Assembly (NCBI GenBank): GCA_903873775.1
Contig: CAIQPR010000017.1
Coordinates: forward strand, 69,719-133,718
Direction of reading: 5' to 3'
DNA from: an uncultured Actinomycetes bacterium
GTDB lineage: Bacteria; Actinomycetota; Acidimicrobiia; Acidimicrobiales; RAAP-2
DNA length: 64,000 nucleotides
This document shows positions 4,232 to 35,509 of this stretch, piece after piece. How positions within the stretch are numbered: position 1 is the first letter of the stretch; each line of letters begins with the position of its first letter. The notes under the pieces were generated by a model. It saw only the letters and a program-made list of their open reading frames with translations, was not told the origin of the DNA and ran no database searches. The position numbers and the translations under genes were made by a program.

Positions 4232-4234
4232 AAT
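4229..4234 (+). promoter_or_regulatory. putative -10 element (TAGAAT), leaderless start at 4241
   Basis: TANNNT, then exactly 6 nt, then ATG; overlaps the upstream stop codon. Confidence 0.6.
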
Positions 4235-4240
4235 TTCGGG

Positions 4241-7723: not shown

Positions 7724-7733
7724 AAGGACGCCT

Positions 7734-7784
7734 GCTAGGGTTGTTTGTCGGGTTTGCACCGGAAACCCGACCCTATTGCCTAGC
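7734..7784 (+). other. extended inverted repeat / hairpin between polA and rpsA
   Basis: GTCGGGTTT (7747-7755) / AAACCCGAC (7763-7771) perfect 9-bp stem, nested inside GCTAGG (7734-7739) / CCTAGC (7779-7784). Confidence 0.55.
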
Positions 7785-7818
7785 TGGCCCCGGTGCGGTC
7801 GCGTTGTGAAGGAAATAC

Positions 7819-9186: not shown

Positions 9187-9195
9187 CTTTCCCAA

Positions 9196-9246
9196 CGAAA
9201 AGACCCCCTCTCTACACCTCACAGGTGCGGGGAGGGGGTCTTTTCG
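9196..9246. terminator. bidirectional intrinsic terminator
   Basis: Perfect 15-bp inverted repeat CGAAAAGACCCCCTC / GAGGGGGTCTTTTCG with T-runs on both strands, between convergent genes. Confidence 0.85.
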
Positions 9247-9266
9247 CGTGCGGATGACAAACAGAA

Positions 9267-13467: not shown

Positions 13468-15027
13468 GTGGCGGAAACTCGATTCGGACAAATTGGTCGT
13501 CTGGCGCAGCGTGTTCTGCCCATCCTGATTGTCATCGATCTACTTGCCGGCATTACTTTTCGATTCTGGACGAAATCGAAGTTGTGGCTCGACGAAGCAC
13601 AGGCCGTCAACATCTCCACACATTCACTCACTCAGATCGTCAGTTATCTGAAGAACGATGGCGCACCTCCGCTCTATTACTTCATCTTGCATTTCTGGAT
13701 GAAGGTTGTCGGAACGAGCGACAAAGACGTACGTGCTTTGTCTGGCGTCATCTCTGTGGCGACACTTCTCTTGGTCTACGGCGCCGCCAAAGCGTGGTGG
13801 GATCGACGGAGCGCAATTATCGCGGTGGCCATTGCGGCGGTATTGCCGTACTGCATCTACTTCGCGACCGAGACGCGCATGTACGCGCTCGTGATGGCAG
13901 AAAGTACGGCGCTCCTCTGGGTTCTTCGTGTGCATCTAGATCGGCCCCGTTGGTCAACAACGGTCGGAATGGCGCTGATCGGTTCGTGCCTTCTTTATAC
14001 CCACTACTGGGGCATTTACCTCTTAGGCGTGTTCGGACTGTTTGGGCTCATTCGGTGGTACCTCCATCGAGGTCAGCCGGAACGCCGCGATTGGATGTTG
14101 GTCCTCGCGCCCACTGTGGCCTTCGTGTCCTTCTTGCCGTGGGTGCCCATTTTTAACTCTCAACGACTCCACACGGGTACGCCGTGGTCGCCGGGACCAG
14201 GTCTGTACCAGATCTTCACGTGGTTCAACGGGTTCACGGTGAATCAAAGTGAGCACCTTGTGGCGTTGTCCCTGCACAACGAGATCACGATGCTGGTGTT
14301 CGTGGGTCTCGTCTTGTACGGGGTCTTCGGCCTCGTGATGACGCCGAAAGACAACCGTCTCATTCTGGACTGGACGGGGGTTCCAGAAACACGCACGATT
14401 GCCTTCATCACAATGACGACGATGGCCTTTGGTCTTCTCGCCTCTCACGTCTCGGGATCGGCCTACGTGCCCCGGTACGCCGCCGTCATAGCTATCCCCA
14501 TTGCGTTTCTCGCCGCGCGTGGAGTTCGCAATTTTGAGACGCCGCTACGCATCCTGATCGTTTTGGGTTTGATGTCGGGTGCGGCAATCTGGACTGACAA
14601 GTGGGGCGTACAGGTACAGCGAACGCAAGCCGGCGTCATTGGTACAGCTCTGCGTGCCGCTCCCGCCGGGTCGTTGGTCTACGTCTGTCCGGACCAGCTG
14701 GGGCCATCTCTGCTGCGTTATTCACCTACGAACCTCACCTACATCGGCTACCCGCGCTTTGAGAATCCGAAGATTGTGAATTGGTACGACTACCTCGACG
14801 CGTACAACGCGAGAACGCCCGCTCAAAATGCGGCCGCCCAGGCTGCAACCATTTCGTCCGGACAATCGGTCTACGTGGTGTGGGCGCCCAATTACGGGCT
14901 CAAATTGACATGCGTGGATTTCACGCGCGCATTGGCCGCGTCGCTTCATCGCCACATCGTGACGGTGGCGCCCTTGAATCTGAGTGGGTACTACCAATCC
15001 ATGGAGTTACAGCAACTCGTCGGATAG
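13468..15027 (+). CDS. GT-C glycosyltransferase (GT39/PMT_2-like, polyprenyl-phosphate-sugar dependent)
   Basis: LWLDEA after TM1, DGAPPLYY, ETRMYAL, YTHY; about 10 hydrophobic segments plus a C-terminal soluble domain. Confidence 0.85.
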   Translation: MAETRFGQIGRLAQRVLPILIVIDLLAGITFRFWTKSKLWLDEAQAVNISTHSLTQIVSYLKNDGAPPLYYFILHFWMKVVGTSDKDVRALSGVISVATLLLVYGAAKAWWDRRSAIIAVAIAAVLPYCIYFATETRMYALVMAESTALLWVLRVHLDRPRWSTTVGMALIGSCLLYTHYWGIYLLGVFGLFGLIRWYLHRGQPERRDWMLVLAPTVAFVSFLPWVPIFNSQRLHTGTPWSPGPGLYQIFTWFNGFTVNQSEHLVALSLHNEITMLVFVGLVLYGVFGLVMTPKDNRLILDWTGVPETRTIAFITMTTMAFGLLASHVSGSAYVPRYAAVIAIPIAFLAARGVRNFETPLRILIVLGLMSGAAIWTDKWGVQVQRTQAGVIGTALRAAPAGSLVYVCPDQLGPSLLRYSPTNLTYIGYPRFENPKIVNWYDYLDAYNARTPAQNAAAQAATISSGQSVYVVWAPNYGLKLTCVDFTRALAASLHRHIVTVAPLNLSGYYQSMELQQLVG

Positions 15028-15068: not shown

Positions 15069-16556
15069 ATGGATGAGCAGAAGCCCATTGTTGTCATCGG
15101 TGCAGGTCCGGCAGGATTGACAGCGGCGTACGAGATTCTCCGTCGGGGCGGTTCCGTGGTCGTGTACGAGTCCGACGGTGTCGTTGGCGGCATTAGTCGA
15201 ACCGTGGAGCGCGAGGGCTGGCGTTTCGATATTGGTGGACACCGGTTCTTCACGAAGGTGAAGGAAGTAGAGGCTTTCTGGCACGAGATTCTGCCCGATG
15301 AAGACTTTCTCCTTCGTCCCCGTATGTCACGCATTTTTTACGACGGGAAGTATTACGACTACCCACTAAAGCCCATGAACGCCCTGAAGAATCTGGGGTT
15401 CATTGAGGCCGTTCGTAGTGTCGGCAGTTACGGATGGGCGAAGGTCCATCCTCCGAAGGATCAGACCAACTACGAAGGTTGGTTGGTTGCGCGATTTGGC
15501 TGGCGCCTCTACCGACGGTTCTTTAAGACCTACACCGAGAAGGTGTGGGGCGTTCCCGTCAATCAAATGCCCGCCGACTGGGCGGCTCAGCGAGTGAAGG
15601 GTTTGTCGCTGGGTAACGCGATTTCTACTGCGCTGTCGCCGAAGAAGAAGCAGACGAACATCACCAGTCTGATTGAAGAATTTCAGTATCCGAAGTTCGG
15701 ACCCGGAATGATGTGGGAGCGCTGCACAGACTTGATTCGTGAAAAGGGAGGCCGCGTCGAGCTCCGCCACCGCGTGGTGGGCATTCGACACGAAAATGGA
15801 CAAGCCGTTGCCGTCAGGGTCAAGGGGCCCGATGGCGTCGTCTCCGAGCAGCCGGCGGCACACGTGATTTCCACGATGCCCATGGCCCAATTGGTTGACG
15901 CCTTCGAACCGGCCGCACCTTCCAGTGTCGTCACCGCGGGACACGATTTGCACTATCGCGACTTTTTGACGGTCGCTCTCGTCATTCCCGAAGACCAAGC
16001 CTTCCCAGACAACTGGATCTACATTCACGCGTCGGAAGTGAAGGTCGGACGTATTCAGAATTTCGGATCGTGGTCCCCGTACATGGTGAAGGAAGGTCGC
16101 ACCTGTCTCGGTCTTGAGTACTTCGTCTTCGAGGGTGACGAGTTGTGGAACGCCAAGGACGAGGATCTCATCGAGATGGGCAAGAAAGAACTTGCGTTCC
16201 TCGGGCTGATTTCCAATGATGTCACCATCGACACGGGGTACGTGTTCCGCATGCCGAAGGCGTACCCGTACTACGACGGCACGTACAAGCAGAATGTCAA
16301 GGTGATCAGTGACTACCTGGCGTCCGACATGTCGAATGTGCACCTGATCGGCCGCAACGGCATGCACAAGTACAACAATCAGGATCACTCGATGTACACG
16401 GCAATGCTCACGGTCGACAACATCTACGGTGCGCACAATGACATCTGGGCGGTGAACGTCGAAGAGGAGTATCACGAAACCTCCTCCACCTCGTCCGGAA
16501 GTGAAGGAACGGGGCGCGACGCACCTATTCTGCCGAAGCGCACCTCGATCACCTGA
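15069..16556 (+). CDS. FAD-dependent oxidoreductase, UDP-galactopyranose-mutase-like (eukaryote-type)
   Basis: VIGAGPAGLTAA FAD motif, FDIGGHRFF, WIYIH, PKAYP, GRNGMHKYNNQDHSM. Start set at ATG 15069. Confidence 0.75.
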   Translation: MDEQKPIVVIGAGPAGLTAAYEILRRGGSVVVYESDGVVGGISRTVEREGWRFDIGGHRFFTKVKEVEAFWHEILPDEDFLLRPRMSRIFYDGKYYDYPLKPMNALKNLGFIEAVRSVGSYGWAKVHPPKDQTNYEGWLVARFGWRLYRRFFKTYTEKVWGVPVNQMPADWAAQRVKGLSLGNAISTALSPKKKQTNITSLIEEFQYPKFGPGMMWERCTDLIREKGGRVELRHRVVGIRHENGQAVAVRVKGPDGVVSEQPAAHVISTMPMAQLVDAFEPAAPSSVVTAGHDLHYRDFLTVALVIPEDQAFPDNWIYIHASEVKVGRIQNFGSWSPYMVKEGRTCLGLEYFVFEGDELWNAKDEDLIEMGKKELAFLGLISNDVTIDTGYVFRMPKAYPYYDGTYKQNVKVISDYLASDMSNVHLIGRNGMHKYNNQDHSMYTAMLTVDNIYGAHNDIWAVNVEEEYHETSSTSSGSEGTGRDAPILPKRTSIT

Positions 16557-16561
16557 GTCCG

Positions 16562-17833
16562 GTGACACTCGTGTCGGGACCCACGGCGTCCTCTCCGTGG
16601 CGGCGGTTGCTGTCGAATGCACTACTTGTCGCCGTCGCCGGAGGCTTCGCCAACGTCCTGAATTTGGGCGTGACGTTTTTCATCGCGCGACTGCTGCAGC
16701 CCAATACCTACAGCGCCTACTCGCAGATGGTGGGAGTGTTTTTCGTTGTGGCGCTACCTGGGAGCGCGTTGAGCGTGGCGGTCGTGCGACGGGCCACCTA
16801 CTACATCGTGCGGGGAGAGGACGACGTCACGCGCCGCTGGGAGTACCGACTCCGCCAACGCGTTATTCGGGCGGCCGCCGTGGGCGCTCTGGGTTCTCTG
16901 CCTTTGGCGGTCGTGATTGCCCTGTGGTTGGGACACCGCGCGTGGATCGATGTGTGGCTGGTGATTTTGGCGGGCATTGTGTACGCGGTCGTGAGCGTCG
17001 ACCGCGCTTTGCTCCAATCACGCCAGAGATACAGCGCCCTCGCGGGGAACTTCGTTGTCGAGGGTCTCGTACGTACGGTTTTCATTCTGGTGGGCACGAC
17101 CTTCGGCGTCGCGGGGTACGGAGTGGGGCTGTTAGTGGCTGAATTGCTGACGCGTTGGCATTCGTCATGGTTAACGCGTCCCGAAGAACCCGTTGATCAC
17201 TCAATTTCCCTGACGCACACCGGTCTGACCAACGAGCTGATGGTGGCCTTTTGGACCTTGGGCATGATGGCCATTTTGCAGTTCATCGACGTGTTCACCA
17301 TTGGTCACGCCAATCCTCACGGTGGGGGTTCCTACACGGCGATCTCGCAAATCGCGAAGACTCTTGTCTACGCCGCCACGATCTTGAGCAGTTTTCTGTT
17401 ACCCGAGGCGGCTCTCGCGAATCGAAAAGGTGGTGACGTTGTCAAGCAGTTGGGAGTGGTGGGCGGGCTGCTCGCCGTGCCAGCCCTCGTGCTCACGGCG
17501 ACTGCCGCGCTCGCGCCCACATTGCTCGTAGACGTGTTTCCCGCGCAATATCGTCACGCCGCCGATTCACTCCTCACCTTGGTGGTCGCGATGGTGGCTC
17601 TCTCGGTGTCGACCGTCCTCGTGACGTTCCTGCTGGGCGACGGAGCTCGCTTGCCCACTCTGTGGCTGACTGCGTGCGTGTCCGTCGGTTTCTTCTGGAT
17701 TGTGGGCGCTCACGGGGTGTGGCATGAGACGGCGACAAGGGACCTCGAGGTGCAGTGCGTGGTCGTGGTGGGCCTCGTCGTCGCGTCGGGATTTCGGCTT
17801 CGTTCTCGTTTACGACTGGAGGCTGCGGCGTGA
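16562..17833 (+). CDS. polysaccharide/oligosaccharide flippase (Wzx/MOP-superfamily-like)
   Basis: About 12 hydrophobic segments, two-fold repeated architecture, located in a glycosyltransferase operon. Confidence 0.75.
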   Translation: MTLVSGPTASSPWRRLLSNALLVAVAGGFANVLNLGVTFFIARLLQPNTYSAYSQMVGVFFVVALPGSALSVAVVRRATYYIVRGEDDVTRRWEYRLRQRVIRAAAVGALGSLPLAVVIALWLGHRAWIDVWLVILAGIVYAVVSVDRALLQSRQRYSALAGNFVVEGLVRTVFILVGTTFGVAGYGVGLLVAELLTRWHSSWLTRPEEPVDHSISLTHTGLTNELMVAFWTLGMMAILQFIDVFTIGHANPHGGGSYTAISQIAKTLVYAATILSSFLLPEAALANRKGGDVVKQLGVVGGLLAVPALVLTATAALAPTLLVDVFPAQYRHAADSLLTLVVAMVALSVSTVLVTFLLGDGARLPTLWLTACVSVGFFWIVGAHGVWHETATRDLEVQCVVVVGLVVASGFRLRSRLRLEAAA

Positions 17834-18963
17834 CCCGCGATGCAACTGCCGAACTTCGTGAGTTGGTCGCCGCGTCCGGCCTTCGAACCATTCGCGTCAT
17901 CGCGTGGCGCGATCTCGACGACCCCGAGGCGGGCGGTAGTGAGCTGCACGCGGACGAGGTTCTACGACGATGGGCGGCCGCGGGTCTGTCGGTCGATCTG
18001 CGGACCTCGGCGGTTCCGGGACGCACCAAGCGCATCCGTCGGCACGGTTATTTCGTAGAGCGGTCGGGGGGCCGGTATCAGGTGTTCCCGCAAGCTGTTC
18101 TCCGCGGTTTCCGTCACGATCGCGATCACTATGACGCACTCGTTGAGATTTGGAACGGGATTCCGTTCTTTGGGCCTCTGTGGTTCAAAGGTCCTCGGCT
18201 CACCTTGCTGCACCATGTTCACGGCGCCATGTGGAAAATTTCGGTTCCTGGTCCGCTGTCCAAGGTGGGTTGGTGGCTTGAACATCGGGTCAGTCCTTTG
18301 ATCTATCGAAATTCGCGTATCTCCACATTGTCCAGTTCGAGTGCGGAAGAGATTAGAGACATCCTGCATCTTCGGGATGTGTCGGTTGTTCCCGTCGGGG
18401 TCTCGACGTTCTATTCGCCCGGCGGACAGCGTTCCGAGACCCCTCTCGTCGTTGCGGTGGGGCGACTGGCACCCGTGAAGAGGTTTGACATTCTGATTCG
18501 GACATTTGCGGAGGTGCGGGCCGCATGTCCGACCGCCCGTCTCGTCATTGCCGGCGAAGGTTACGTCCGCAGCGATCTCGAAGCCCTGGTGGAAGAGGTG
18601 GGGGGTCGGGAGTGGATTTCCTTGCCGGGTCGCATTAGTGACGAGGAACTTCGCGATTTGTACCGGTCCGCGTGGGTGCTGACGTCAACGTCGCTTCGAG
18701 AGGGCTGGGGAATGACGATTACCGAGGCCGCCGCCTGCGGCACGCCCGCCGTGGTCCATGACATTGCCGGTCACCACGACGCCGTGGACGCCAATCACAG
18801 TGGACTTCTTGTTCCTGAAACGGATTCGCTTGCCGACGCCCTGGTGAATGTTCTCAGTGACGCTGAATTGCGTGAACGGCTCGCATCCGGTGCCGCCGAA
18901 TACGCGGCAACCTTCTCGTGGGATGAAGTCGCGCTCTCGCTCTTTCGTCGGCTTGTCGACTAG
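17830..18963 (+). CDS. GT4 glycosyltransferase (Rv0225-like)
   Basis: WRDLDDPEAGGSE, GGRY, NGIPF, HHVH, VGRLAPVKR, TSLREGWG...EAAACGTP. GTGA overlap with the flippase gene. Confidence 0.9.
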   Translation: MTRDATAELRELVAASGLRTIRVIAWRDLDDPEAGGSELHADEVLRRWAAAGLSVDLRTSAVPGRTKRIRRHGYFVERSGGRYQVFPQAVLRGFRHDRDHYDALVEIWNGIPFFGPLWFKGPRLTLLHHVHGAMWKISVPGPLSKVGWWLEHRVSPLIYRNSRISTLSSSSAEEIRDILHLRDVSVVPVGVSTFYSPGGQRSETPLVVAVGRLAPVKRFDILIRTFAEVRAACPTARLVIAGEGYVRSDLEALVEEVGGREWISLPGRISDEELRDLYRSAWVLTSTSLREGWGMTITEAAACGTPAVVHDIAGHHDAVDANHSGLLVPETDSLADALVNVLSDAELRERLASGAAEYAATFSWDEVALSLFRRLVD

Positions 18964-18969
18964 GGCGAG

Positions 18970-21900
18970 TTAGCGACGTTCGATCACAACGACGAGGTCG
19001 TGGATGATGAGGTCCCGCATGAGCGGCACCTTGAGAGTCCATCGCCACGAAGGCCCGAGGAGGCGAGGGCCCACCGTGTAGAGAGCGAGACCTCGGTGCT
19101 GTCGGACGATGCGGACCAATTCGTGCGGACGTAGGGCAAACAGCGTCTCCCCAAATCGCTTGTCAGGCTCGTGGCCCGTCTTGGTGCGATAGCGACGGCG
19201 CCCGTAGGAACCGGAGACCAGGTGCCACGGGCTGGTCTCAAACCCTCCGGTGGGCGAGAGCCACATGCGGTTCTGCACGAAAATGGACCCGCCGGGTCGC
19301 GTCACACGAACCACTTCTTCAAGGAGTCGCCGTGGGTCGTCGACGAAAGAAAAAATGTCGTGCACGATGACGAGGTCGAAACTTCCGTCACGAACGGGGA
19401 TATTCAAAGGTTGAAACGGAATCTCGTCGAGGTACGACACGCGCGGTGTTGGTGAGTCGACGTCCTCGAGAGAGCTCGCCGTCGGCACTCGCATGGCCGT
19501 CACGCGGGCACCACGTTCGGCGAGCGCTTCCGCTGCGGCGAGGCGAGGGTCGGCAATCTCCAAGACCTCACGATTGAAAATTGCGGTGCGACCCACGACC
19601 AGATTGGTGGTGTCTTGTCGCATCAGAGCGTCCAATTCCTCAGGTTGATGGCGCAAGCGACGTGCGGCCCGGAGGAAAAACAAGGTCCTCGGAAGCCCGA
19701 CGACCGGGATCTGCATTGGCTCGTCGGGTTCGATCTCCTCGGTCGGCTGATTGTGGTCCGGGTCAGCAACGTTGAGTCCGCGTCGACGTCGAGCGACGAG
19801 CGCCGGCGCGACGACGACCGGTACTTTCGACGCTCCCGGCATCCATCGACGCGTACGGCGGGACTCTGTGGGGGCGGCCTCGCCTCGAGGGGCCTCTTTC
19901 GTTGCGCTGGCGGCGGGCGGCGGCGTATCTCGAGGAGTAGGTCGCGGTCGTGCGGCTCGCGAGGAGAGAGCCTGGGGCTGGACATTGGCAATCACCAGGA
20001 AGAACCACAGCGCCATGGCGAACCAGACGAAGCTATTGCTGTAGTGGACATGAGCGGGCCACGTGATGTCTCTGGTCCACGTGCCGAGCGTTGCCGACAT
20101 GGTGACGGCAATACCCGCCAGTAGGGACAGGACGGCGCTGGCGCCGAGTAAACGGCCAATCGAGGGACGTGCGCGCCACACCCACGCCGCCGCCACGAGG
20201 AACGGCACCATCCAGATGGACACGAAGAGGCCAATGATCACCGCGGCCGTGTACGTGACGAGGGGTGACGACGTGACATTACCCACGAACACAGAGAGCA
20301 CGGGCGTGGCGTCAACGTGCTCGCGAGTCATTTCGTCAACACTGAGACCACGGCGTCGGGGCCAGTTGAAGACGGCGATGCCGAGCACCGCGAGGAAACC
20401 GAAGAGTGATGCGAGGAGAGCGTAGAGAACGGTGTTCTGCGGTTGCCAGACGAAGGCGAGCTGTTCAGTTGACGAGATGTGCGAAGGAAGACGCCACCCC
20501 ATTGACGCCCCGTCGACGAGGGTCGGTGTGCCGAGATCGCGACCGTTCAAGATTGCGTGCCAACCCGGACCGTAGGACTGTCCGAGAACCGCCCACTGTC
20601 CGGCGTCTGCTGAACCAACCGTGGAGCGAACGACGGTGCGTCCGTACCAGTGTCCGGCCGCGTCGGAAACGGTGGGTACTGGCCCGGCCGTGGTACCCGT
20701 TGACGAGAGCTGAACGTCGTCGAGATCAAGACCGGTCGCAAGTCCGGGGCTGGAGGTAATGACGGATTGACCGGCGGAGACGGTGGTGGGTGCAGTAGCG
20801 CAGGACGTGAACGGCAAGGCGTCTCCAGCCAGAGCCGACGCCGAGCTCCCGCTCACACGAATCGGAATCGACACGCCATCGATCTTGAGCAGGTCGCTGC
20901 GGCAGCCGGACGAGAACGTGGGATTCGTGACACCCGGCGTCACACCGGGAATGGCGATGTCCGCGATGGCGATGGGTGGGAAATTGATGCCGCCGCTGAC
21001 GCGGTCGAGGACGGTGGCGGTCTTGAACTTGACCGTAGTAAATCGAAACGCTGAGCCCGTGATCGCGGGAACGTTGATGGTGAAGATCTGCTCCGTATTC
21101 AGAGCAGAGCCCTGAGCCGCGAGCGTTGTGGGTATCGCGAAGTTTTCGGTAGTGCGCCCGTTGCTAATGCTCATTTCGGTCGGTACCGCGTGATAACCGT
21201 CGTTCACGATGGTCATCTTGAAGGTGTGAATGGTCACAGAGTGCGACAGCGTCGCTTGGACAAATTCTCCAGCACCAGACTTGAAACGAGGCTGCCACAG
21301 AGTTTGCAGCGAGCCGTCGAAGGCGCTCCACGACGAGTTGGCGAGGGAACCTTTGATGTGTGACGAACTTGTCGTGGCGATAATCGACGTGCCGGCGCCG
21401 GGGTGTCGCCCCAGGATCTCATTGACGACCTGGTCGCTCGCGAGTGAATTGAGCGACGCCGTGCCCGAGATCGTGAAAGAGCGGGAATAGGGCAGGTCCA
21501 CGTAGCGCAGCAGATACGGCTCTGGGTCGGCTCGGACTGAATAGGGAGAGACTCGAAGTCGGGATACGACGATCTTGAGAGAGTCAGTCTGTGCGGCAGA
21601 GCCTGCCGCGGCGAGTAGGGACGTGGGGAGGAGCAACCCTCTCGTGGCCGGACCAAAACCCGGGACCGCAACTTCCGAGAATCCCACCATGCTCGCGGTG
21701 GCGACGCCGTGTGGCGCTGCCGTCACTCCCAGAATCGTGATCCGAACCGTACGTCCGGTGGTTGGAGGTATGGAAATGGTCTGACCCGGCGGATTCTGAG
21801 ACGATGGCGTCAAGGTCCGGATGATGTTCGGCCGACCGTCAACGGATATCCCAATCTTGGTGATGTAACGGTTAATAAAGATGTCGCGCGCTTGCGTGAT

Positions 21901-24252
21901 CTGCAGCGAGGAAATTCGGTGGGGCTCCAGTGCTGTCTCCTGCCACCACTGCCCGTCGGCATTCGAGAAGGCGGCTGTTGCCCACGACGTGGTGGAGTCT
22001 CCATCGACAGCCTTATACGCCTGATTCTCTGGGTTGTTCGTGATGGGGTTTCCATAACTGGACGCCGTCACGGATGAGAGGCCCGTGAGTTCCGCGACGG
22101 TTTGGGAATTCGCAGGAGCGTTGGGGAAAACCGGAATGCTCTGCTCTTGCTCGTTGTTCGAGTACTTCTCGTTCGCCGCAAGTACGTAGCCCTGCGTGGC
22201 GTTCAGGGTTCCGAACGTCTGTTGCGACTTTGTATTGGAGTCGGTCAGCACCAATGTGGCGCCGGCTTGGTGCGCCTCCTCGGCGATCATGGAGCGAGGT
22301 GTCGACGCGTCATAGAGAATGACATTGCCGCCCGAGAGTCCACCCACGTTCGCGAGCGTCACGAGGCCCGCTCCATCACCGGCGACGATGTAGGGAGAGC
22401 TCGTTGATTCCACACGCACCAGAGGGCGAGCCGCGCTCACGGAATAGATCTTGAGCGATGGCGGCCACTGGTAACCGGGAGGCAAGGCGAGAGTGTTCTC
22501 GTTGATATAGGGACCATTGATGGCGGTGAATGTCGTCTGAGGTCCGTACGAGCCCACTTCGGTCATCCCGACGTTCGGAGATGAAAAGAGGTGGTCTAAG
22601 TACGGGGGTAGTGGTGTTCCGTATCGCTCATACTGTCCGTCAAACTGCACCAACACGTTTGACGCCCCAAACAAACGCGCAATCGGAGCAATGGAGGCCG
22701 GCTCGGCGACGCCATCTTGGAGAGTGGAGTCCAGCGAACGTATGAGGTTGATACTCGCCGGCTCTCCAACGAGTTGGACCTGCGAGGAGATCCAGGGACG
22801 GTGCACCAGCGCGGGCCACAATGAATCGTTGTAGGTCCCGTAGCGGTAATAGGCGAAATCAAATCCTGGCAAGCCGAGGACATTGCTCGTCGACGAGCCG
22901 GTATTGAGTTCCTTCGCGGCCTGCTGGACGTAGGAGGGAGGCGTCTCGGGCAGCGTCAGGTTGGAGGGGATGGACCGCAGTGTGAACAAGGGCGACATCG
23001 CCGTGATGCACGCGAGCGAGAAGACCCCGACGCTCCACCACTGAAGACGGGGCCAGCGAGCGACCAGTGCGTCAAAGAGGGCTCCGGCCAAAAGCGCCAG
23101 TCCAATGGTCATGATCGGGATCACCCGATTGGTGGAGCGCATGGCGAGAGCGACCGTCGTATGGGTGGCGAGGTACCGCAAGACGACACCAAATGGTGTC
23201 GGACTCGACAGTGGGTACGACGCCACCGCGACTACCAAGCCAATGAAGGTGACACCAACTGCAAACAGGCGGTACCGCCAACGAATCACGAGAGCGGCCA
23301 CGAACCCCGTAGCTGGGACGAGAAAACTGGCGAGGGGAACCACGTTGCCGCTCGTGTAGTGAATCGAGTTCCCTGTCCATAACTGCAGTCCGTCAGTGCC
23401 GTAGAAGTACCAGTACCCCAAGCCACGGAATACCTCGGAGGCCGACGATGTGAGCGTCACCGTGGAGAACGATTCTGTGAACTTCAAAATATTGATGCCG
23501 TACTTGCCCTCAGCCCACAGTCCGGCCAGCCACCACAAGGACACGACGAGCGAGAGCGAGCCCATGCGGATCAGCACGGCGCGAACGCGGCGCCACGGAA
23601 TTTCTCGAGTCGCGGCGGCGAAGAAGAGCCAGGCGATGGGGGCAAGACCAACCGTCAGAATCGATGTGGCGTTAATACCGCCCGCCAACGCCACGACGAT
23701 GGCAAATAAAGCGGGATTGCGCCAGTCATTGCGGTGGGCCGCACGAATTGTGAAGACCATCATCCAGCCAAGTCCCGCCCACGGCATGAGGAGGGCCGAG
23801 GTACGGGCGATGTCGACGATGATGAAGGGCGACAACATGTACGCAAGGGCGACCAAGAATCCCGCGCGACGCGTTAATCCCATTTCGGCGGCGCATTTGC
23901 GAGCTCCAAGACCCGCGAGGAAGAGCAGGCCACCCATCCAGACGCGTTGGGCTATCCAGGTCGGAACACTCAACGCGTGACAGATCCAGTAGTAGGGACC
24001 CATCGGGAAGAGGTATCCGATGTTTTGGTGGGTGACGGTCCCGAACCCGACGTCGGTGTTCCACATGGACGCCGCTGTGGCGAGAAGGTGAGACGGGTCG
24101 AGGTAGAGATAGACCTTGGTGTCGTCGGCAAGCAGCCCCGGCTTCGTCAGCAAGAGGGGCGCGAAGGCCAGCACGATCAAGACCACTGTGTCCCACGGTG
24201 ACTCGAGCCAGCGTCGGCGCGTGGCGGATACGTCTGAGGCGCCAAGGGTCAC
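18970..24252 (-). CDS. AftD/DUF3367-like arabinofuranosyltransferase with carbohydrate-binding modules, fused to a C-terminal Rv0224c/MtrP-like methyltransferase-fold domain
   Basis: N-terminal GT-C region (DDTK, HQNIGYLFPMGPYY, GGINAT), two discoidin/F5-8-like modules (AVDGDSTTSW, AFDGSLQTLW), C-terminal TM block, Pro/Arg linker, then a class I MTase-like domain (SFDLVIV, EVVRVTRPGG, WLSPTGGFE). Confidence 0.85.
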   Translation of the reverse strand: MTLGASDVSATRRRWLESPWDTVVLIVLAFAPLLLTKPGLLADDTKVYLYLDPSHLLATAASMWNTDVGFGTVTHQNIGYLFPMGPYYWICHALSVPTWIAQRVWMGGLLFLAGLGARKCAAEMGLTRRAGFLVALAYMLSPFIIVDIARTSALLMPWAGLGWMMVFTIRAAHRNDWRNPALFAIVVALAGGINATSILTVGLAPIAWLFFAAATREIPWRRVRAVLIRMGSLSLVVSLWWLAGLWAEGKYGINILKFTESFSTVTLTSSASEVFRGLGYWYFYGTDGLQLWTGNSIHYTSGNVVPLASFLVPATGFVAALVIRWRYRLFAVGVTFIGLVVAVASYPLSSPTPFGVVLRYLATHTTVALAMRSTNRVIPIMTIGLALLAGALFDALVARWPRLQWWSVGVFSLACITAMSPLFTLRSIPSNLTLPETPPSYVQQAAKELNTGSSTSNVLGLPGFDFAYYRYGTYNDSLWPALVHRPWISSQVQLVGEPASINLIRSLDSTLQDGVAEPASIAPIARLFGASNVLVQFDGQYERYGTPLPPYLDHLFSSPNVGMTEVGSYGPQTTFTAINGPYINENTLALPPGYQWPPSLKIYSVSAARPLVRVESTSSPYIVAGDGAGLVTLANVGGLSGGNVILYDASTPRSMIAEEAHQAGATLVLTDSNTKSQQTFGTLNATQGYVLAANEKYSNNEQEQSIPVFPNAPANSQTVAELTGLSSVTASSYGNPITNNPENQAYKAVDGDSTTSWATAAFSNADGQWWQETALEPHRISSLQITQARDIFINRYITKIGISVDGRPNIIRTLTPSSQNPPGQTISIPPTTGRTVRITILGVTAAPHGVATASMVGFSEVAVPGFGPATRGLLLPTSLLAAAGSAAQTDSLKIVVSRLRVSPYSVRADPEPYLLRYVDLPYSRSFTISGTASLNSLASDQVVNEILGRHPGAGTSIIATTSSSHIKGSLANSSWSAFDGSLQTLWQPRFKSGAGEFVQATLSHSVTIHTFKMTIVNDGYHAVPTEMSISNGRTTENFAIPTTLAAQGSALNTEQIFTINVPAITGSAFRFTTVKFKTATVLDRVSGGINFPPIAIADIAIPGVTPGVTNPTFSSGCRSDLLKIDGVSIPIRVSGSSASALAGDALPFTSCATAPTTVSAGQSVITSSPGLATGLDLDDVQLSSTGTTAGPVPTVSDAAGHWYGRTVVRSTVGSADAGQWAVLGQSYGPGWHAILNGRDLGTPTLVDGASMGWRLPSHISSTEQLAFVWQPQNTVLYALLASLFGFLAVLGIAVFNWPRRRGLSVDEMTREHVDATPVLSVFVGNVTSSPLVTYTAAVIIGLFVSIWMVPFLVAAAWVWRARPSIGRLLGASAVLSLLAGIAVTMSATLGTWTRDITWPAHVHYSNSFVWFAMALWFFLVIANVQPQALSSRAARPRPTPRDTPPPAASATKEAPRGEAAPTESRRTRRWMPGASKVPVVVAPALVARRRRGLNVADPDHNQPTEEIEPDEPMQIPVVGLPRTLFFLRAARRLRHQPEELDALMRQDTTNLVVGRTAIFNREVLEIADPRLAAAEALAERGARVTAMRVPTASSLEDVDSPTPRVSYLDEIPFQPLNIPVRDGSFDLVIVHDIFSFVDDPRRLLEEVVRVTRPGGSIFVQNRMWLSPTGGFETSPWHLVSGSYGRRRYRTKTGHEPDKRFGETLFALRPHELVRIVRQHRGLALYTVGPRLLGPSWRWTLKVPLMRDLIIHDLVVVIERR

Positions 24253-24309: not shown

Positions 24310-24906
24310 ATGAGTCGCTTAGCCGTTGTCGGCGGAATTGGATCGGGGAAAACGGCGGCCACGGATTATCTGGCGACCCGTGGCGCCACGGTGGTCGACG
24401 CGGACGTCGTCGCCCGCGAGATCGTTCTTCCGGGCGCCCCCGCGTGGCAACAGCTCCGAGACGCCTTTGGAGACGCCATCTTGATGGAGGACGGAAATCT
24501 GGACCGCGCCTTCGTGGCGGACGTGGTGTTCCACGACCGTTCGGCCCTGCGTCGTTTGAACGCCATCACCCATACGCAGATTGGTCTGGAGATCATCCGC
24601 CGAATTGACGAAGCACCGACATCCCTCGTTGTTGTCGCCCTGCCGCTCTATAGACCGGAACATCGTGAACTCTTCTCTCTGGACGAGGTGTGGTGCATCG
24701 TTGTGGACCCTGAGACTGCGGTGCGACGTCTCACGCAGCATCGCGGCATGCGCGAAGACGACGCACGAGCTCGACTCGCGAACCAGATGACGAATGTCGA
24801 ACGCACAGCCCTGTGCACCGAAGTCATTTCGAACGAGGGGTCTCTCGACGATCTGCAGGGCGCTCTTGACGGACTGCTCAAGCGCAAGGGGTTGCTCGAT
24901 GGCTGA
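24310..24906 (+). CDS. coaE: dephospho-CoA kinase
   Basis: GGIGSGKT, VDADVVAREIV, LNAITH; directly upstream of uvrB. Confidence 0.95.
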   Translation: MSRLAVVGGIGSGKTAATDYLATRGATVVDADVVAREIVLPGAPAWQQLRDAFGDAILMEDGNLDRAFVADVVFHDRSALRRLNAITHTQIGLEIIRRIDEAPTSLVVVALPLYRPEHRELFSLDEVWCIVVDPETAVRRLTQHRGMREDDARARLANQMTNVERTALCTEVISNEGSLDDLQGALDGLLKRKGLLDG

Positions 24907-26917
24907 TTTCGTTGTTGACACACCCTTCTCACCGCAAGGGGACCAGCCGGTGGCCATTGCGCGTCTCGCGGACGGCGTTCAAAATGGCCTGCGCTACCAA
25001 ACGCTGGAGGGCATTACCGGTTCCGGGAAAACAGCGACCATCGCCTGGATGATTGAACGCGTCCAGCGACCCACTCTCATTCTCGAGCCCAATAAGTCGC
25101 TCGCCGCCCAGTTGGCGTCGGAGTTGCGGGACATGTTGCCGCGGAACCGAGTGGAGTTTTTCGTTTCGTACTACGACTACTACCAACCCGAGGCGTACGT
25201 GCCGTCGTCGGACACGTACATCGAGAAGGACAGCTCGATCAACGAAGAGATCGACCGTCTGCGCCACGCGGCTACGTCGGCCCTTCTCACGCGTCGCGAC
25301 ACCGTGGTCGTGGCGTCCGTGTCATGTATTTACGGTCTCGGCTCGCCACGGGAATACAAGGAGCGCATGCTGGCGCTGGCGGTGGGCGACGTGGTGGACC
25401 AGCGGGCACTGCTGGGTCGTCTGGTCGAGATGCAGTATTCGCGCAATGACCTACTCGTTGCTCGTGGGACCTTCCGAGTTCGCGGCGACACATTGGAATT
25501 GCAGCCGGCGTACGACAACGAGGCCATTCGTATCTCTTTCTTTGGCGACGAGATCGACCGCATCTCCTTCTTCAACCCGATGACGCAGGAAGAGCGAGGA
25601 GATGTCGGCGAAGTGACCATCTTTGCGGCATCGCACTACGCCACCGGTCAAGAGACCCTCGAACGGGCGGTTCGGACGATCGAGGCTGAGCTGGGAGAAC
25701 GACTGCAAACCTTCGAGCGCGAGGGCAAACTCCTCGAAGCGCAGAGACTTCGGTCTCGCACCGAGCACGACATCGAGATGATCGAACAAACGGGTACGTG
25801 TGCGGGTATTGAGAATTACTCCGCGCACCTCGATGGTCGCAGTCGTGGAGAGCGACCCTTCACACTTCTGGACTACTTCCCGGACGACTTCCTCGTGGTG
25901 GTCGATGAATCTCACGTGGCGATGCCCCAGGTACGGGGCCAGTTTGCGGGGGACAAGGCCCGTAAGGAGACGCTCGTCGAGCACGGATTCCGACTTCCGA
26001 GTGCCCTCGACAACCGTCCCCTCAATCTGGACGAATTCCTCGAGCTCGTTCCCCAAATGGTGTTCGTCTCGGCGACGCCAGGACCGTTCGAGCTGGAGAA
26101 TTCCGACCAGATTGTGCCGCAGGTGATTCGTCCCACGGGCTTGCTCGATCCCGTCGTGACGATTGTGCCGACCAAGAATCAGATTGATGATCTCCGAGAG
26201 CGCATTCTCGAGGTGGTGGAGCGGGGCGAACGAGTTCTCGTGACGACGCTGACGAAGCGCATGGCGGAGGACCTCACGAACTACCTGGGCAAGCACGGCA
26301 TCCGCGTGCGGTACCTCCACAGCGACATCGACACCATTGAACGTATTGAGATCCTGCGCTCGTTACGACTCGGCGAATTCGATGTCCTTGTTGGTATCAA
26401 TTTGCTGCGCGAGGGTCTCGACTTGCCCGAAGTGTCCTTGGTGGCGATTTTGGACGCGGATAAGGAAGGTTTCTTGCGCTCCCGTAGCGCACTGATCCAG
26501 ACGATTGGTCGAGCCGCGCGTAATGCCCACGGACACGCCATTCTGTACGCCGATCGATTGACGGACTCCATGCGCGAAGCCATCACGACGACAGAGCGAC
26601 GACGCGCCATGCAAGAGGCGTACAACACGGAACACGGCATTAGCCCCGTGACGGTGACCAAGAATGTGGCGGACATCTTGAATCGTCTGCGGGCGCCGTC
26701 GAAGAAAGAGACGGCGCCGTTATCCGCGCGCGAACGGGCGGGGATTGGCGTGTTGGACGATGTCTCGTCCGAGATTGCCCGCATTGAAGATGAGATGTTG
26801 ACCGCGGCGCACGAACTTCGCTTTGAAGAAGCCGCGGCATTGCGAGATCTTCTTCACGAACTTCGGTCACAAATTGCTTCCGACGCACCGGTCGAAGAGG
26901 AGACATCCGGACAGTAG
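24899..26917 (+). CDS. uvrB: excinuclease ABC subunit B
   Basis: [36 protein letters not shown]-terminal UVR coil. Start ATG 24899. Confidence 0.98.
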
Positions 26918-29773: not shown

Positions 29774-31632
29774 TGCTGGAGAAGCCCAGTGGTATTCCCC
29801 ACGAGAGCGGTTGTTATCTGTACCGCAATGCTCGCGGCGATGTCATTTACGTAGGGAAAGCCCGGTCGCTCTCGCAGCGGCTCAGTAACTACTTTCAACG
29901 TCCGTCAGCCCTTGACCCCAAAACGCGCACCCTGATGCACGAGGCGACGAGTCTCGAGTGGGTGATCACTAAGTCCGAAGTCGACGCCCTCATTCTCGAG
30001 AACGAGCTCATCAAGACGCATCAGCCCCGGTACAACATGCGGCTGAAGGACGACAAGAGTTTCCCTTTCCTCGCCCTGGACCGACGCACCCCGTGGGCGC
30101 AGCCGTACATCACGCGTGGTCGGCACGTCCGAGGTGTTCGCTACTTCGGACCCTTTGCGCACGTGGGCTCTCTCCGTCGCACGCTCGACGAGGTCCTGTT
30201 GGCCTACCCGCTGCGGAGTTGTTCGAACAACAAGTTCCGTGCGCACGAACGTCAGCAGCGACCATGCCTTCTCTACGACGTTGGCAAGTGCGCGGGACCT
30301 TGCATCAACGCGGTGACGCCGGAGAGGTATGCGGAACTCGAAGAGTCTTTCGAGCGATTCTTTGAGGGTGACGTCAATATCTTGCGCCGGCAACTTGAGG
30401 ATCGGATGGCGCAATCCGCCACTGATCAGCGGTACGAAGACGCCGCACGAGCGCGTGACGGCCTCCACGCGCTCGGACGAGCCGCGGAGAGTCAGCGCAT
30501 CGTGTTGGATGACGCCAGCGAGCTGGACGCTTACGCGGTAACGATCTCCGGATCACGAGCCGCGGTCACGATGTTCCGTGTGCGGGGTGGCCGCGTCGTG
30601 GGGCGGCACGCCCTCATGATGGACCTCTCATTCGACGAGGACGACGCGACGATTCTTGTACGGGCTTTCCCGGAGATTTATGAAGACGGTGCCGCGGTGC
30701 CTCGGGTGGTGCTTGTGCCGGAGTCTGTGGCGGCACAGCCCCTCGTCCAGGAGTACTTGGCGCACCTCCGCGGCCGTCCCGTCACACTTATTGCGCCGCA
30801 ACGGGGACGTCGTCGCGATCTCGTGCGCATGCTGATGGACGACGGCGTCGAAGTCCTGCGCACCGATTCTCTACGCCGCGAGCACGACCACAATGCGCGC
30901 GCGCGAGCACTACAGGAGTTGGGAAGTGCACTCTCGCTACCGCAGCCGCCGTACCGGATCGAGTGCTTCGACATGTCCCACCTCCAGGGAACGAACTACG
31001 TCGGTTCCATGGTGGTCTTCGAAGACGGGTTGCCGAAAAAGAGCGACTATCGACGCTTCAATGTGCGCTCGGTGCTCGGTAACGATGACGCCGGCGCGAT
31101 GCGTGAAGTCGTTCGTCGACGACTGGAGCACTGGGGCTCCACTGACGGAAAGTTTCGAAACGCCGATCTCATCATCATCGACGGTGGCCTCCCTCAATTA
31201 GGCGCCGCCCTGCTCGCCTACGACGACGCCGCCCTGACGGCTCCGGTTGAATTTGTGGCATTGGCCAAACGAGAAGAATTGCTCTACCGACCCGGTTCGT
31301 CGGTGCCGATCGCCTTGGATCGAGGTTCGGAATCCCTGTATTTGGTGCAGCGCCTTCGTGACGAGGCTCACCGTTTCGCCATCACCTTCCATCGCTCGAA
31401 GAGAGGCAAGTCGATGGTGCGTGAAGCGCTCGACGGCATCCCAGGGCTCGGGCCCGCTCGTCGAGATGCCGTCATGACGCACTTCGGTTCGCTCGCGGCC
31501 GTCCGGGGAGCAACCCTGGAGGAGCTGCGAGCCGTACCCGCACTTCCCGACGCCGTGGCCGTCACCCTCTACGATCACTTTCACGGTACGTCCCCCGTGC
31601 GGCTAACCAAGGAAGGTGCAGTAGATGAATGA
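29770..31632 (+). CDS. uvrC: excinuclease ABC subunit C
   Basis: GIY-YIG domain (GCYLY...IYVGKA), [23 protein letters not shown], HhH. Start GTG 29770 or ATG 29773. Confidence 0.97.
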
Positions 31633-33324: not shown

Positions 33325-33352
33325 TTAACCGGCTCTAGTTTGAGAGGTGTCC

Positions 33353-34366: not shown

Positions 34367-34368
34367 CC

Positions 34369-35502: not shown

Positions 35503-35509
35503 TTGAGAC

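What the first reader, a model, noticed from the sequence alone, without database searches (positions are those of the whole stretch)
18970..24252. AftD-like arabinofuranosyltransferase fused to a degenerate Rv0224c/MtrP-like methyltransferase domain
Seen: one uninterrupted 1760-aa ORF. After the last TM comes an ~88-aa Pro/Arg/Ala linker (about 19717-19980), then a ~248-aa class I methyltransferase-fold domain (18970-19716). Known (recalled): mycobacterial AftD (Rv0236c) and the Rv0224c methyltransferase (corynebacterial MtrP) are separate genes in the same chromosomal neighbourhood. The tail matches the Rv0224c pattern (RVTRPGG, WLSPTGGFE, W-H-L-V-S-G, GHEPDKRFGETLF, LMRDLIIHDLVVV). However, motif I reads VLEIADPRL instead of a Gly-rich LDVGGGPG loop, and the post-II EH is replaced by SF. 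Inference: this is a Rosetta-stone fusion linking the two functions. The tethered domain is probably cytoplasmic (Arg-rich linker after the last TM) and may be a pseudo-enzyme acting as a regulator or scaffold rather than a catalyst. I do not recall this architecture being described.
Basis: partly seen in the sequence, partly recalled or inferred. Interest (0 to 1): 0.8.

Follow-up and report, generated by a model that had tools for sequence, protein, structure and literature searches.

The report
AftD glycosyltransferase fused to dead MtrP-like domain
A freshwater Acidimicrobiales bacterium encodes a cell-wall glycosyltransferase of the mycobacterial AftD type joined to a methyltransferase-like domain of the MtrP/Rv0224c family that has lost its cofactor-binding residues, and comparison with relatives shows these two proteins and an Rv0225-like glycosyltransferase form one conserved gene module whose function is still unknown in mycobacteria.

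Summary
Window 18970-24252(-) is one 1760-aa ORF. It contains an AftD-type GT-C domain, carbohydrate-binding modules, five C-terminal TM helices, a disordered linker of about 85 aa, and a 242-aa class I methyltransferase-fold domain.

An independent assembly gives the identical protein, so this is not an artefact.

The tail belongs to the MtrP/Rv0224c family. Its best hit in three Mycobacteriales genomes is the Rv0224c-syntenic gene. It lacks three features that intact family members keep: the GxGxG loop, the acidic beta2 residue and the E-H pair.

This degenerate state defines a monophyletic clade of 17 sequences. Its sisters, including a sister genus with the same five-gene island, carry an intact AftD::MTase fusion. 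The tail is as conserved as other parts of the protein and folds confidently, so it is probably a retained pseudo-enzyme.

The fusion is not unique. About 25 database clusters carry it, from at least two independent origins, one of them in Actinoplanes. One congener encodes the tail as a separate, translationally coupled gene.

The adjacent GT4 is the Rv0225 ortholog. GT4->MTase->AftD operons and GT4::MTase fusions also exist.

Verdict: a recurrent architecture, present in databases but not found in the literature searched, that links MtrP, Rv0225 and AftD.

The parts
18970..24252 (-). Complete ORF of 1760 aa plus stop: an AftD-like GT-C joined to a degenerate MtrP-family domain.
22153..24162 (-). 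[quoted passage not shown] It carries the subfamily motif DDTKVYLYLDP. The equivalents of E251 and D474 are kept, K361 is replaced by R, and D41 is replaced by Y.
   Evidence: Pfam 262 bits; alignment to 6W98; motif table; essential residues from the paper
21655..22071 (-). F5/8 type C / CBM_AftD carbohydrate-binding module (residues 728-866) within the periplasmic region (about residues 701-1270).
19987..20442 (-). C-terminal membrane region (residues 1271-1422) with five predicted helices, corresponding to AftD TM12 plus the TM13-16 bundle. This places the C-terminus in the cytoplasm.
   Evidence: AF2 secondary structure; hydropathy; AftD architecture
19699..19986 (-). Pro/Arg/Ala-rich linker (residues 1423-1518), predicted disordered. 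Its composition is not conserved; it is acidic in the sister genus.
19771..19788 (-). RRRGLN motif (residues 1489-1494, continued as V-A). It is nearly invariant as [RK]RRGLN[VI]P in all members of the degenerate clade, fused or split, and absent from intact fusions.
18973..19698 (-). MtrP/Rv0224c-family class I methyltransferase-fold domain (residues 1519-1760): two N-terminal helices, a seven-strand Rossmann core and a family-specific C-terminal part.
19540..19566 (-). Remnant of motif I, VLEIADPRL (residues 1563-1571), in the place of VLDVGGGPG.
19483..19503 (-). End of beta2, VTAMRVP (residues 1584-1590), where Arg stands in place of the ribose-binding Asp/Glu.
19342..19362 (-). HDIFSFV (residues 1631-1637), where S-F stands in place of the family's E-H pair (NVLEHV).
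17830..18963 (+). GT4 glycosyltransferase, the ortholog of Rv0225/MSMEG_0311. It is convergent with the fusion gene, with 6 nt between the two stop codons.
16562..17833 (+). Polytopic membrane protein of 423 aa with no family match, conserved in the island.
15069..16556 (+). FAD-dependent oxidoreductase of the PRK07208 type (NF005548, 782 bits). It is the most conserved gene of the island.
13468..15027 (+). PMT_2-type GT-C glycosyltransferase, the first gene of the island.

Best explanation
The gene encodes a polytopic AftD-family GT-C glycosyltransferase. Its cytoplasmic C-terminus carries a domain of the MtrP/Rv0224c methyltransferase family on a flexible tether of about 85 residues.

Shown:
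- The fusion is real.
- It is inherited within one Acidimicrobiales genus.
- It derives from an ancestor whose fused domain had intact SAM-binding motifs.
- It sits in a conserved five-gene island: PMT_2 GT-C, FAD oxidoreductase, an unknown polytopic protein, an Rv0225-type GT4, and AftD::MT.

Inferred:
- In this clade the domain no longer binds SAM or methylates.
- It is retained as a non-catalytic subunit. It probably docks on the cytoplasmic face of the AftD-like enzyme and/or on the soluble Rv0225-like GT4. This would couple the cytoplasmic step of building a lipid-linked glycan to the periplasmic GT-C step, or regulate that step.
- The wider pattern of gene order and fusions implies that MtrP-family proteins generally act in physical association with AftD and the Rv0225-type GT4.

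My odds: fusion real 0.97; MtrP-family membership by descent 0.9; loss of methyltransferase activity 0.7; scaffold or regulator of a GT4/AftD complex as the retained role 0.45.
For: Reality of the fusion:
- The ORF and its domains are confirmed.
- An independent assembly gives the identical ORF.
- Nineteen long relatives show the same architecture at 31-47% tail identity.
- Genomes G030, G016, G020 and G215 carry ORFs of 1708-1765 aa.

Family membership:
- The tail aligns to the M. celatum Rv0224c-syntenic protein over 246 residues (E 2e-23).
- That gene is the best genomic hit of the tail in three Mycobacteriales genomes.
- In the reverse direction, an intact stand-alone member finds only the tail in the window's own genome (1e-31, against 1e-7 for the next hit).

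Degeneration:
- Motif tables show the loss of all three features.
- The former glycine loop is hypervariable within the clade (DTSA, DFET, SIDT, TTNT, PVPT), while GG-x-ETSPWHL and RVTRPGG stay fixed.
- The Pfam match skips the motif I positions.

Retention:
- All-pair identity of the tail is 0.44-0.53, against 0.46 for the periplasmic CBM region and 0.39 for the C-terminal TM region.
- The AF2 model has pLDDT 84, pTM 0.83 and a seven-strand Rossmann fold.
- All top Foldseek hits are class I methyltransferases.
- In G195 the tail is kept as its own gene, with GAGGA, ATG and translational coupling to the aftD stop codon.

Evolution:
- The degenerate clade is monophyletic (SH-aLRT 100) on a long stem of 1.38 substitutions per site.
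- It is sister to the intact fusions P0037 and P0039.
- The sister genus G179 has the same island with VIADVGGGPGYF and SSNVLEHV.

Module:
- The window GT4 is the Rv0225 ortholog.
- GT4::MT fusions exist.
- Other arrangements are a GT4->MT->AftD operon, a GT4::MT fusion followed by AftD, and MT divergent from GT4->AftD.
- C. glutamicum keeps aftD, the GT gene and mtrP within eight genes.

Topology: with the AftD structure described. In that structure a cytoplasmic partner, ACP, binds the TM13-16 bundle and regulates the enzyme.
Against:
- Some class I enzymes tolerate unusual motif I sequences.
- MTase-fold proteins can acquire other chemistry; SpnF, a cyclase, is among the structural hits.
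- No predicted or measured contact between the tail and the GT4 or the AftD cytoplasmic face was obtained, because only single chains could be folded.
- The AftD-like part lacks the D41 equivalent that is essential in M. abscessus (Tyr in the whole subfamily). Its chemistry and sugar are therefore unknown.
- Conservation was measured as identity, not as dN/dS.
- Expression of the full-length protein is unverified.
Confidence: 0.62

Rival explanations
1. The tail is still an active SAM-dependent methyltransferase that binds the cofactor in a non-canonical way, so the protein is a bifunctional glycosyltransferase and methyltransferase.
For: The fold is intact and confidently predicted. The acidic residue of beta1 (VLE/VLD) and the RVTRPGG and GGxETSPWH motifs are kept. 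The sister-group fusions are clearly catalytic-type. Sugar O-methyltransferases (RebM, AtmM) are among the structural neighbours.
Against: Three separate features were lost together: the glycine loop, the acidic beta2 end, and the E-H pair that 39 of 41 intact members keep. The former loop is hypervariable within the clade. The long stem branch indicates a change of constraint.
Confidence: 0.12
2. The tail has been re-purposed for a new ligand or a new reaction, for example binding a polyprenyl-phosphate sugar, a nucleotide sugar or an acyl carrier, rather than acting as a passive scaffold.
For: Conservation is strong in the substrate-side elements (GGxETSPWHL, ARRRY, PRxLP). A new clade-specific motif, [RK]RRGLN[VI]P, has appeared. 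MTase-fold enzymes with other functions exist, such as SpnF. M. abscessus AftD binds an ACP phosphopantetheine on its cytoplasmic face.
Against: No new conserved catalytic-looking residues were identified. There is no ligand evidence. The hypothesis was not tested here.
Confidence: 0.15
3. The tail is a decaying remnant with no function, carried along because removing it is neutral.
For: The catalytic motifs are lost. The stem branch is long and the window's own terminal branch is long as well (0.97). The island is present in only about 6 of 37 congeners.
Against: The tail has no stop codon or frameshift in at least 17 diverged sequences. It is as conserved as the CBM and TM regions. The fold is confident. 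It is kept as a separately translated gene with its own SD and ATG in G195. A new invariant motif has appeared.
Confidence: 0.07
4. The single ORF is an assembly or base-calling artefact that joins two adjacent genes.
For: One congener (G195) has two genes, split by TAG in exactly this region. A split version of an intact fusion also exists (P0203 plus P0202). Reads could not be inspected.
Against: An independent assembly from another run gives an identical 1760-aa ORF with no indel. Many relatives at 31-47% identity share the uninterrupted frame through linkers of different sequence. Base composition is continuous across the junction.
Confidence: 0.02

Closest known systems
AftD (Rv0236c; M. 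abscessus AftD, PDB 6W98/6WBX), arabinofuranosyltransferase D of Mycobacteriales
   Same: The Pfam GT-C_AftD domain, the periplasmic carbohydrate-binding modules, and a C-terminal TM12 plus four-helix bundle are shared. The two proteins are colinear over residues 7-1385. The equivalents of K39, E251 and D474 are kept.
   Different: This protein has an extra cytoplasmic linker and methyltransferase-fold domain of about 335 residues. It belongs to a distinct subfamily with DTK[AV]YLYLxP, in which the essential D41 is Tyr and K361 is Arg. The host is an Acidimicrobiales bacterium with a genome of about 2 Mb, and neither arabinogalactan nor mycolate was demonstrated for it. The sugar and the acceptor are unknown.
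MtrP (Cg3168/NCgl2764) = Rv0224c = ML2584, the putative methyltransferase needed for optimal trehalose-mycolate transport
   Same: The tail is homologous over the full length, including the N-terminal helices and the C-terminal GGxE..P.H and PR..P.W..P.LR signature. It is the best hit in both directions. It lies next to an Rv0225-type GT4.
   Different: The tail is fused to AftD rather than free. It lacks GxGxG, the acidic beta2 residue and E-H. It carries a clade-specific RRRGLN motif upstream. Identity to the mycobacterial protein is only 28%.
Intact AftD::MtrP-type fusions (P0037, P0039, genome G179; and independently Actinoplanes rectilineatus WP_045739728.1, P0020, P0053)
   Same: The domain order is the same. 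In G179 the five-gene island and the AftD subfamily are also the same.
   Different: These proteins keep all SAM-binding and E-H motifs and lack the RRRGLN motif. The Actinoplanes type has the canonical DTKLDL AftD motif and arose as a separate fusion event.
Rv0225-type GT4::MtrP-type fusions (P0040/MDA8357197.1, P0047, P0079, P0159; genomes G049, G039)
   Same: The same methyltransferase family is tethered to another glycosyltransferase of the same module.
   Different: The partner is the soluble GT4, not the GT-C. The methyltransferase motifs are intact.
Catalytically dead enzyme-fold domains kept as regulators or scaffolds (pseudo-enzymes), and activator-dependent methyltransferases such as the Trm112 partners
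   Same: The fold is retained, the cofactor motifs are lost, and the domain continues to be conserved. A 2026 preprint predicts that MtrP itself needs a Trm112-like partner, and Hvo_0019-Trm112 is among the structural hits.
   Different: No partner was identified here. The analogy rests on sequence and a predicted fold only.

Membership tests
AftD family (Pfam PF11847 GT-C_AftD) | A match to the family profile above the curated cut-off | tested here: met
   262.1 bits against a cut-off of 26, over residues 31-700. It is the only copy in the genome.
AftD family (Pfam PF11847 GT-C_AftD) | Architecture: N-terminal GT-C TM domain, a long periplasmic region with CBMs, then TM12 and the TM13-16 bundle | tested here: met
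   The protein is colinear with 6W98 over residues 7-1385. F5/8-C and CBM_AftD are present. Five C-terminal helices are predicted in the AF2 model. The reference architecture comes from the paper.
AftD family (Pfam PF11847 GT-C_AftD) | The five residues shown to be essential in M. abscessus/M. smegmatis AftD (K39, D41, E251, K361, D474) | tested here: not met
   K39, E251 and D474 are conserved. K361 is Arg. D41 is Tyr in this whole subfamily, whose motif is DTK[AV]YLYL[DNS]P.
AftD family (Pfam PF11847 GT-C_AftD) | Transfers arabinofuranose from decaprenyl-phospho-arabinose | not testable with these tools
   A search for a DprE1-like ALO domain gave only weak, ambiguous hits.
MtrP / Rv0224c methyltransferase family | Closest relative in Mycobacteriales genomes is the Rv0224c-syntenic gene, and the reverse also holds | tested here: met
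   Searches show the GT4/MT/Aldedh synteny in M. celatum. One search gives the best hits at 1e-18 to 1e-24, against 3e-7 or weaker for the next hit. One search gives the reverse search.
MtrP / Rv0224c methyltransferase family | Full-length colinearity, including the family-specific C-terminal signature (W.SP.GGHE..P.H, PRY.P.W, VP.LRE) | tested here: met
   The alignment covers 246 residues. WLSPTGGFETSPWH, GPRLLGPSW and VPLMRD are present.
MtrP / Rv0224c methyltransferase family | Glycine-rich SAM-binding motif I (V.DVGGGPG.F) and an acidic residue at the end of beta2 | tested here: not met
   The tail has VLEIADPRL and VTAMRVP. Among close relatives, 0 of 18 have at least 2 Gly in the loop, whereas 41 other members do.
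MtrP / Rv0224c methyltransferase family | The conserved E-H pair in NVLEHV (invariant in alignment A1) | tested here: not met
   The tail has DIFSFV. E-H is present in 0 of 18 members of the clade and in 39 of 41 members outside it.
MtrP / Rv0224c methyltransferase family | Genomic association with an Rv0225-type GT4 | tested here: met
   The adjacent GT4 is the Rv0225 ortholog.
Class I (Rossmann-like) SAM-dependent methyltransferase fold | A seven-strand alpha/beta fold resembling solved methyltransferases | tested here: met
   AF2 model with pLDDT 84.3 and pTM 0.83. Foldseek against the PDB gives E 3e-13 to 1e-9, and all top hits are class I methyltransferases.
Pseudo-enzyme (non-catalytic descendant of an enzyme family) | Loss of cofactor or catalytic residues together with continued purifying selection | tested here: inconclusive
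   The loss of residues is shown. Retention is shown through identity, fold and the separately translated gene in G195. dN/dS was not computed.
Pseudo-enzyme (non-catalytic descendant of an enzyme family) | Absence of SAM binding and of methyl transfer | not testable with these tools
   This needs a biochemical assay.

The most novel reading that the evidence does not exclude
MtrP-family proteins are first of all structural subunits of an ancient membrane glycan-assembly complex in Actinomycetota, made of an Rv0225-type GT4, an MtrP-type protein and an AftD-type GT-C. This complex predates mycolic acids. Methyl transfer is dispensable for its core role, as the natural dead-domain clade shows. 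If so, the essential role of Rv0224c and Rv0225 in mycobacteria, and the mycolate-export phenotype of mtrP mutants, would come from their action on the AftD(-TmaT) node rather than from methylation of a mycolate lipid.
Probability: 0.3. Interest if true: 0.8.

Novelty: new variant of a known kind. Interest (0 to 1): 0.62.

Why it matters
Rv0224c (MtrP) and Rv0225 are essential, conserved mycobacterial genes, and their substrates are unknown.

In 2026 preprints AftD was placed at a regulatory node with TmaT that couples arabinogalactan and mycolate assembly. Neither preprint connects MtrP or Rv0225 physically to AftD.

The fusions and operons found here supply that connection from comparative genomics. 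They do so in lineages for which no mycolate pathway was shown.

The natural series runs from an intact fused domain, to a degenerate fused domain, to a degenerate split gene. It amounts to a ready-made separation-of-function experiment: it predicts that part of MtrP's role does not need catalysis.

This can be tested directly in Corynebacterium glutamicum or M. smegmatis with catalytic-dead alleles and interaction assays. For this organism, the finding also defines an accessory five-gene envelope-glycan island in freshwater Acidimicrobiales.

Tried and rejected
I substituted an independent Logan assembly.
- My first script for reading motif columns mis-mapped the alignment. I discarded it and replaced it with an RF-based mapping.
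- I used a remembered approximation of the Rv0224c sequence only to choose which database hit to use as a query. It is not evidence. Family membership rests on the named loci.
- The MtrP paper (PMC7196642) is not held.
- The 423-aa island protein matches no Pfam or NCBIfam family, even at E = 10, and has no homolog in three Mycobacteriales genomes.
- The test for a decaprenyl-phospho-arabinose route through the DprE1 ALO domain was ambiguous, with hits of 20-26 bits.
- A PDB sequence search with the C-terminal TM and linker region found nothing.
- Twin-arginine signal reading of RRRGLNV: rejected, because no hydrophobic h-region follows and the motif sits after the last TM helix in a disordered basic linker.
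- Foreign (horizontally acquired) origin of the tail: rejected, because GC is continuous and the tail's phylogeny tracks the host genus.
Full report
**1. Observation**

Window 18970-24252 on the minus strand is a single open frame of 1760 codons. Public gene callers report the same product (P0002).

Pfam finds four domains:
- GT-C_AftD at residues 31-700 (262 bits).
- F5/8 type C at 728-842.
- CBM_AftD.
- Methyltransf_11 at 1574-1658 (42.6 bits, cut-off 21.2).

The Methyltransf_11 match begins only at profile position 11, after the glycine-loop positions.

The protein is colinear with M. abscessus AftD (PDB 6W98) over residues 7-1385, against a chain of 1413 residues. The last 335 or so residues are therefore an addition to a complete AftD-like protein.

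An AlphaFold2 model of residues 1260-1760 shows:
- five helices between 1271 and 1422;
- a disordered stretch at 1440-1512;
- a folded alpha/beta domain from about 1520.

Five helices after a periplasmic domain correspond to TM12 plus the TM13-16 bundle described for AftD. Together with the very basic linker, this places the tail in the cytoplasm.

**2. Not an artefact**

An independent Logan assembly of run SRR24390641 carries the same gene. It has three nucleotide differences, all synonymous because the protein is identical. It has no indel, and one difference lies within the linker.

Nineteen relatives of 1572-1820 aa, with tails 31-47% identical, have the same uninterrupted architecture through linkers of unrelated sequence. 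Base composition is continuous across the junction.

**3. What the tail is**

A profile of ten intact stand-alone members retrieved 80 loci from named genomes. All of them were Mycobacteriales.

In Mycobacterium celatum the matching gene lies between a divergent GT4 and a downstream aldehyde dehydrogenase. From my knowledge of the H37Rv map, this is the Rv0225/Rv0224c/Rv0223c arrangement.

The window's tail aligns to that protein over 246 residues at 28% identity (E 2e-23). The alignment runs from the N-terminal helices to the C-terminal VP-LRE element.

In M. celatum, C. striatum and Mycolicibacterium septicum, the best genomic match of the tail is exactly this gene. E-values are 1e-18 to 1e-24, and the next match is 3e-7 or weaker.

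In the reverse direction, an intact stand-alone member finds only the tail in the window's own genome: 1e-31, against 1e-7 for generic methyltransferases.

The tail therefore descends from the MtrP/Rv0224c family. The genome has no other member of that family.

**4. Degeneration**

Among 59 family members that cover motif I:
- 41 have a glycine-rich loop (V-x-D-V-G-G-G-P-G-Y-F), and 39 of those have the E-H pair of NVLEHV.
- The 18 close relatives of this protein have 0-1 glycine and no E-H.
- Those 18 also carry Arg where the others have the Asp/Glu that ends beta2.

Within the clade the former loop is hypervariable (DTSA, DFET, SIDT, TTNT, PVPT). RVTRPGG, GG-x-ETSPWHL and the C-terminal elements remain fixed.

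In a maximum-likelihood tree of the domain:
- The 17 degenerate sequences form one clade (SH-aLRT 100) on a long stem of 1.38 substitutions per site.
- That clade is sister (SH-aLRT 98) to two AftD fusions with intact motifs, P0037 and P0039.

Genome G179 belongs to the same family but a different genus. It carries the same five-gene island and the same AftD subfamily, with VIADVGGGPGYF, SSNVLEHV and GGHETSPWHFI in its fused tail.

The order of events is therefore fusion first, then loss of the catalytic motifs in one genus.

**5. Retention**

Evidence that the tail is kept under constraint:
- All-pair identity in the tail is 0.44-0.53. The periplasmic CBM region gives 0.46 and the C-terminal TM region 0.39.
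- The isolated tail folds with pLDDT 84.3 and pTM 0.83 into a seven-strand Rossmann-like domain.
- Its structural neighbours are all class I methyltransferases. They include sugar O-methyltransferases, the Trm112-dependent Hvo_0019, and the MTase-fold cyclase SpnF.
- A new motif, [RK]RRGLN[VI]P, lies about 30 residues before the domain. It is nearly invariant in the degenerate clade and absent from intact fusions.
- In congener G195 the AftD gene ends with TAG just after the last TM helix. The degenerate domain starts four bases later at an ATG preceded by GAGGA. There it is a separate, translationally coupled 316-aa protein that begins just before the KRRGLNVP motif.

A decaying remnant would not be expected to keep its own translation signals. 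The split form also shows that the domain can work as an independent polypeptide.

**6. The module**

The convergent neighbour at 17830-18963 is a GT4. Its best match in the three Mycobacteriales genomes is the GT4 adjacent to the MtrP ortholog. E-values are 1e-45 to 1e-49, against 1e-14 to 1e-16 for the next hit. It is therefore the Rv0225/MSMEG_0311 ortholog, an essential and uncharacterised enzyme.

The representative search also returned proteins of about 640 aa that join an Rv0225-like GT4 to an intact MtrP-type domain.

Other Acidimicrobiales families show these arrangements:
- a GT4->MT->AftD operon (G054);
- a GT4::MT fusion followed by AftD (G049);
- a GT4::MT fusion with AftD nearby (G039);
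- MT divergent from GT4->AftD (G052).

Actinoplanes and its relatives have an independent AftD::MT fusion with canonical AftD motifs. It groups next to the Mycobacteriales MtrP clade.

In C. glutamicum, aftD (cg3161), the GT gene (cg3166) and mtrP (cg3168) lie within eight genes.

The three proteins thus form a recurrent gene-neighbourhood and fusion triad across Actinomycetota.

**7. Host and distribution**

The nearest named UvrB homologs (77-79% identity) are Acidimicrobiales and Acidimicrobiaceae MAGs. Cluster names point to freshwater metagenomes.

Only 6 of 37 congeners sampled have any AftD-like gene. Every complete one of these is fused.

In a sample of 301 genomes of the class, about 32 have a true family member. 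Five of these are AftD fusions and about seven are of GT4-fusion size.

The island (PMT_2 GT-C, PRK07208-type FAD oxidoreductase, a 423-aa polytopic protein with no family, GT4, AftD::MT) always sits between an opp-type ABC transporter and coaE-uvrBAC.

**8. The AftD-like part**

Five residues are essential in M. abscessus AftD. Of these:
- K39, E251 and D474 are conserved.
- K361 is Arg.
- D41 is Tyr.

The whole subfamily reads DTK[AV]YLYL[DNS]P, where canonical AftD reads DTKLDL. I therefore call it AftD-like. I do not assert arabinofuranosyl transfer, and a check for a DprE1-like enzyme was ambiguous.

**9. Mechanism**

Shown:
- A membrane GT-C has a cytoplasmic MtrP-family domain tethered to it.
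- That domain has lost its cofactor motifs.
- The domain is conserved.
- There is a conserved association with the Rv0225-type GT4.

Inferred:
- The domain acts without catalysis, as a docking or regulatory subunit at the cytoplasmic face. It may bind the TM13-16 bundle, the site where ACP binds and regulates M. abscessus AftD, and/or the soluble GT4.
- In this way it would couple the cytoplasmic and periplasmic steps of building a lipid-linked glycan.

Rivals are residual non-canonical methyltransferase activity, a re-purposed ligand-binding or catalytic function, a neutral remnant, and an artefact. They are weighed in the Rival explanations section.

**10. Comparison and novelty**

AftD, MtrP and Rv0225 are known genes. 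The Pfam architecture is present in public records under generic names, for example WP_045739728.1.

I found no paper describing an AftD-methyltransferase fusion or a degenerate MtrP. Two 2026 preprints on the AftD-TmaT node do not link MtrP or Rv0225 physically to AftD.

I rate this a new variant of a known kind. Its main value is as comparative evidence that MtrP and Rv0225 act with AftD, and as a natural separation-of-function series.

Noticed in passing
L106 (genome G195, same genus) 9340-9640: In this congener the AftD-like gene ends with TAG right after the last TM helix. The degenerate MtrP-like protein (316 aa, equivalent to P0035) starts 4 nt later at an ATG preceded by GAGGA. This is a natural split form of the fusion, and it lacks the Pro/Arg-rich linker.
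   Followed up: yes
window 15069-16556 (+): The FAD oxidoreductase matches NCBIfam NF005548 (PRK07208, 'hypothetical protein') at 782 bits and matches UDP-galactopyranose mutase only weakly (35.6 bits). It is the most conserved gene of the island, 70-90% identical in relatives whose AftD tails are 30-47% identical. It may make the sugar donor for the island.
   Followed up: partly
window 16562-17833 (+): This 423-aa polytopic membrane protein is conserved in every copy of the island. It matches no Pfam or NCBIfam family and has no homolog in three Mycobacteriales genomes. It is a candidate flippase or polymerase of an undescribed family.
   Followed up: partly
window 20341-20358 (-), residues 1299-1304: A second copy of the RRRGL sequence (WPRRRGLSV) lies on the cytoplasmic side directly after TM12. 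It resembles the conserved RRRGLNV motif of the linker. I did not check whether it is conserved in relatives.
   Followed up: no
window 18963-18970: The GT4 gene and the fusion gene are convergent, with only 6 nt between their stop codons. In relatives the two ORFs overlap by 4-7 nt (L093, L095). There is no room for separate terminators.
   Followed up: no
window 31625-36274 (+): The gene order is uvrC, rapZ, yvcK (CofD family), gap, pgk, tpi, with no whiA between yvcK and gap. That differs from the usual actinobacterial order, which I am recalling from memory.
   Followed up: no
L100 (genome G049) 3247-11403: Here the stop-to-stop frame containing the AftD match is 2719 aa. It follows a GT4::MT fusion gene, which suggests a much larger multi-domain AftD variant.
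   Followed up: no
P0203 + P0202 (same 508,821-bp contig): An intact-motif AftD::MT protein of the P0037 type appears split into products of 1456 aa and 325 aa in one assembly. The end of the first piece differs from the fused form, so a frameshift is likely. It could be real or a sequencing error.
   Followed up: partly
window 24794-26917 (+): The longest uvrB ORF (707 aa) overlaps coaE. Gene callers and homologs give 672 aa, so the real start is downstream of 24794.
   Followed up: no
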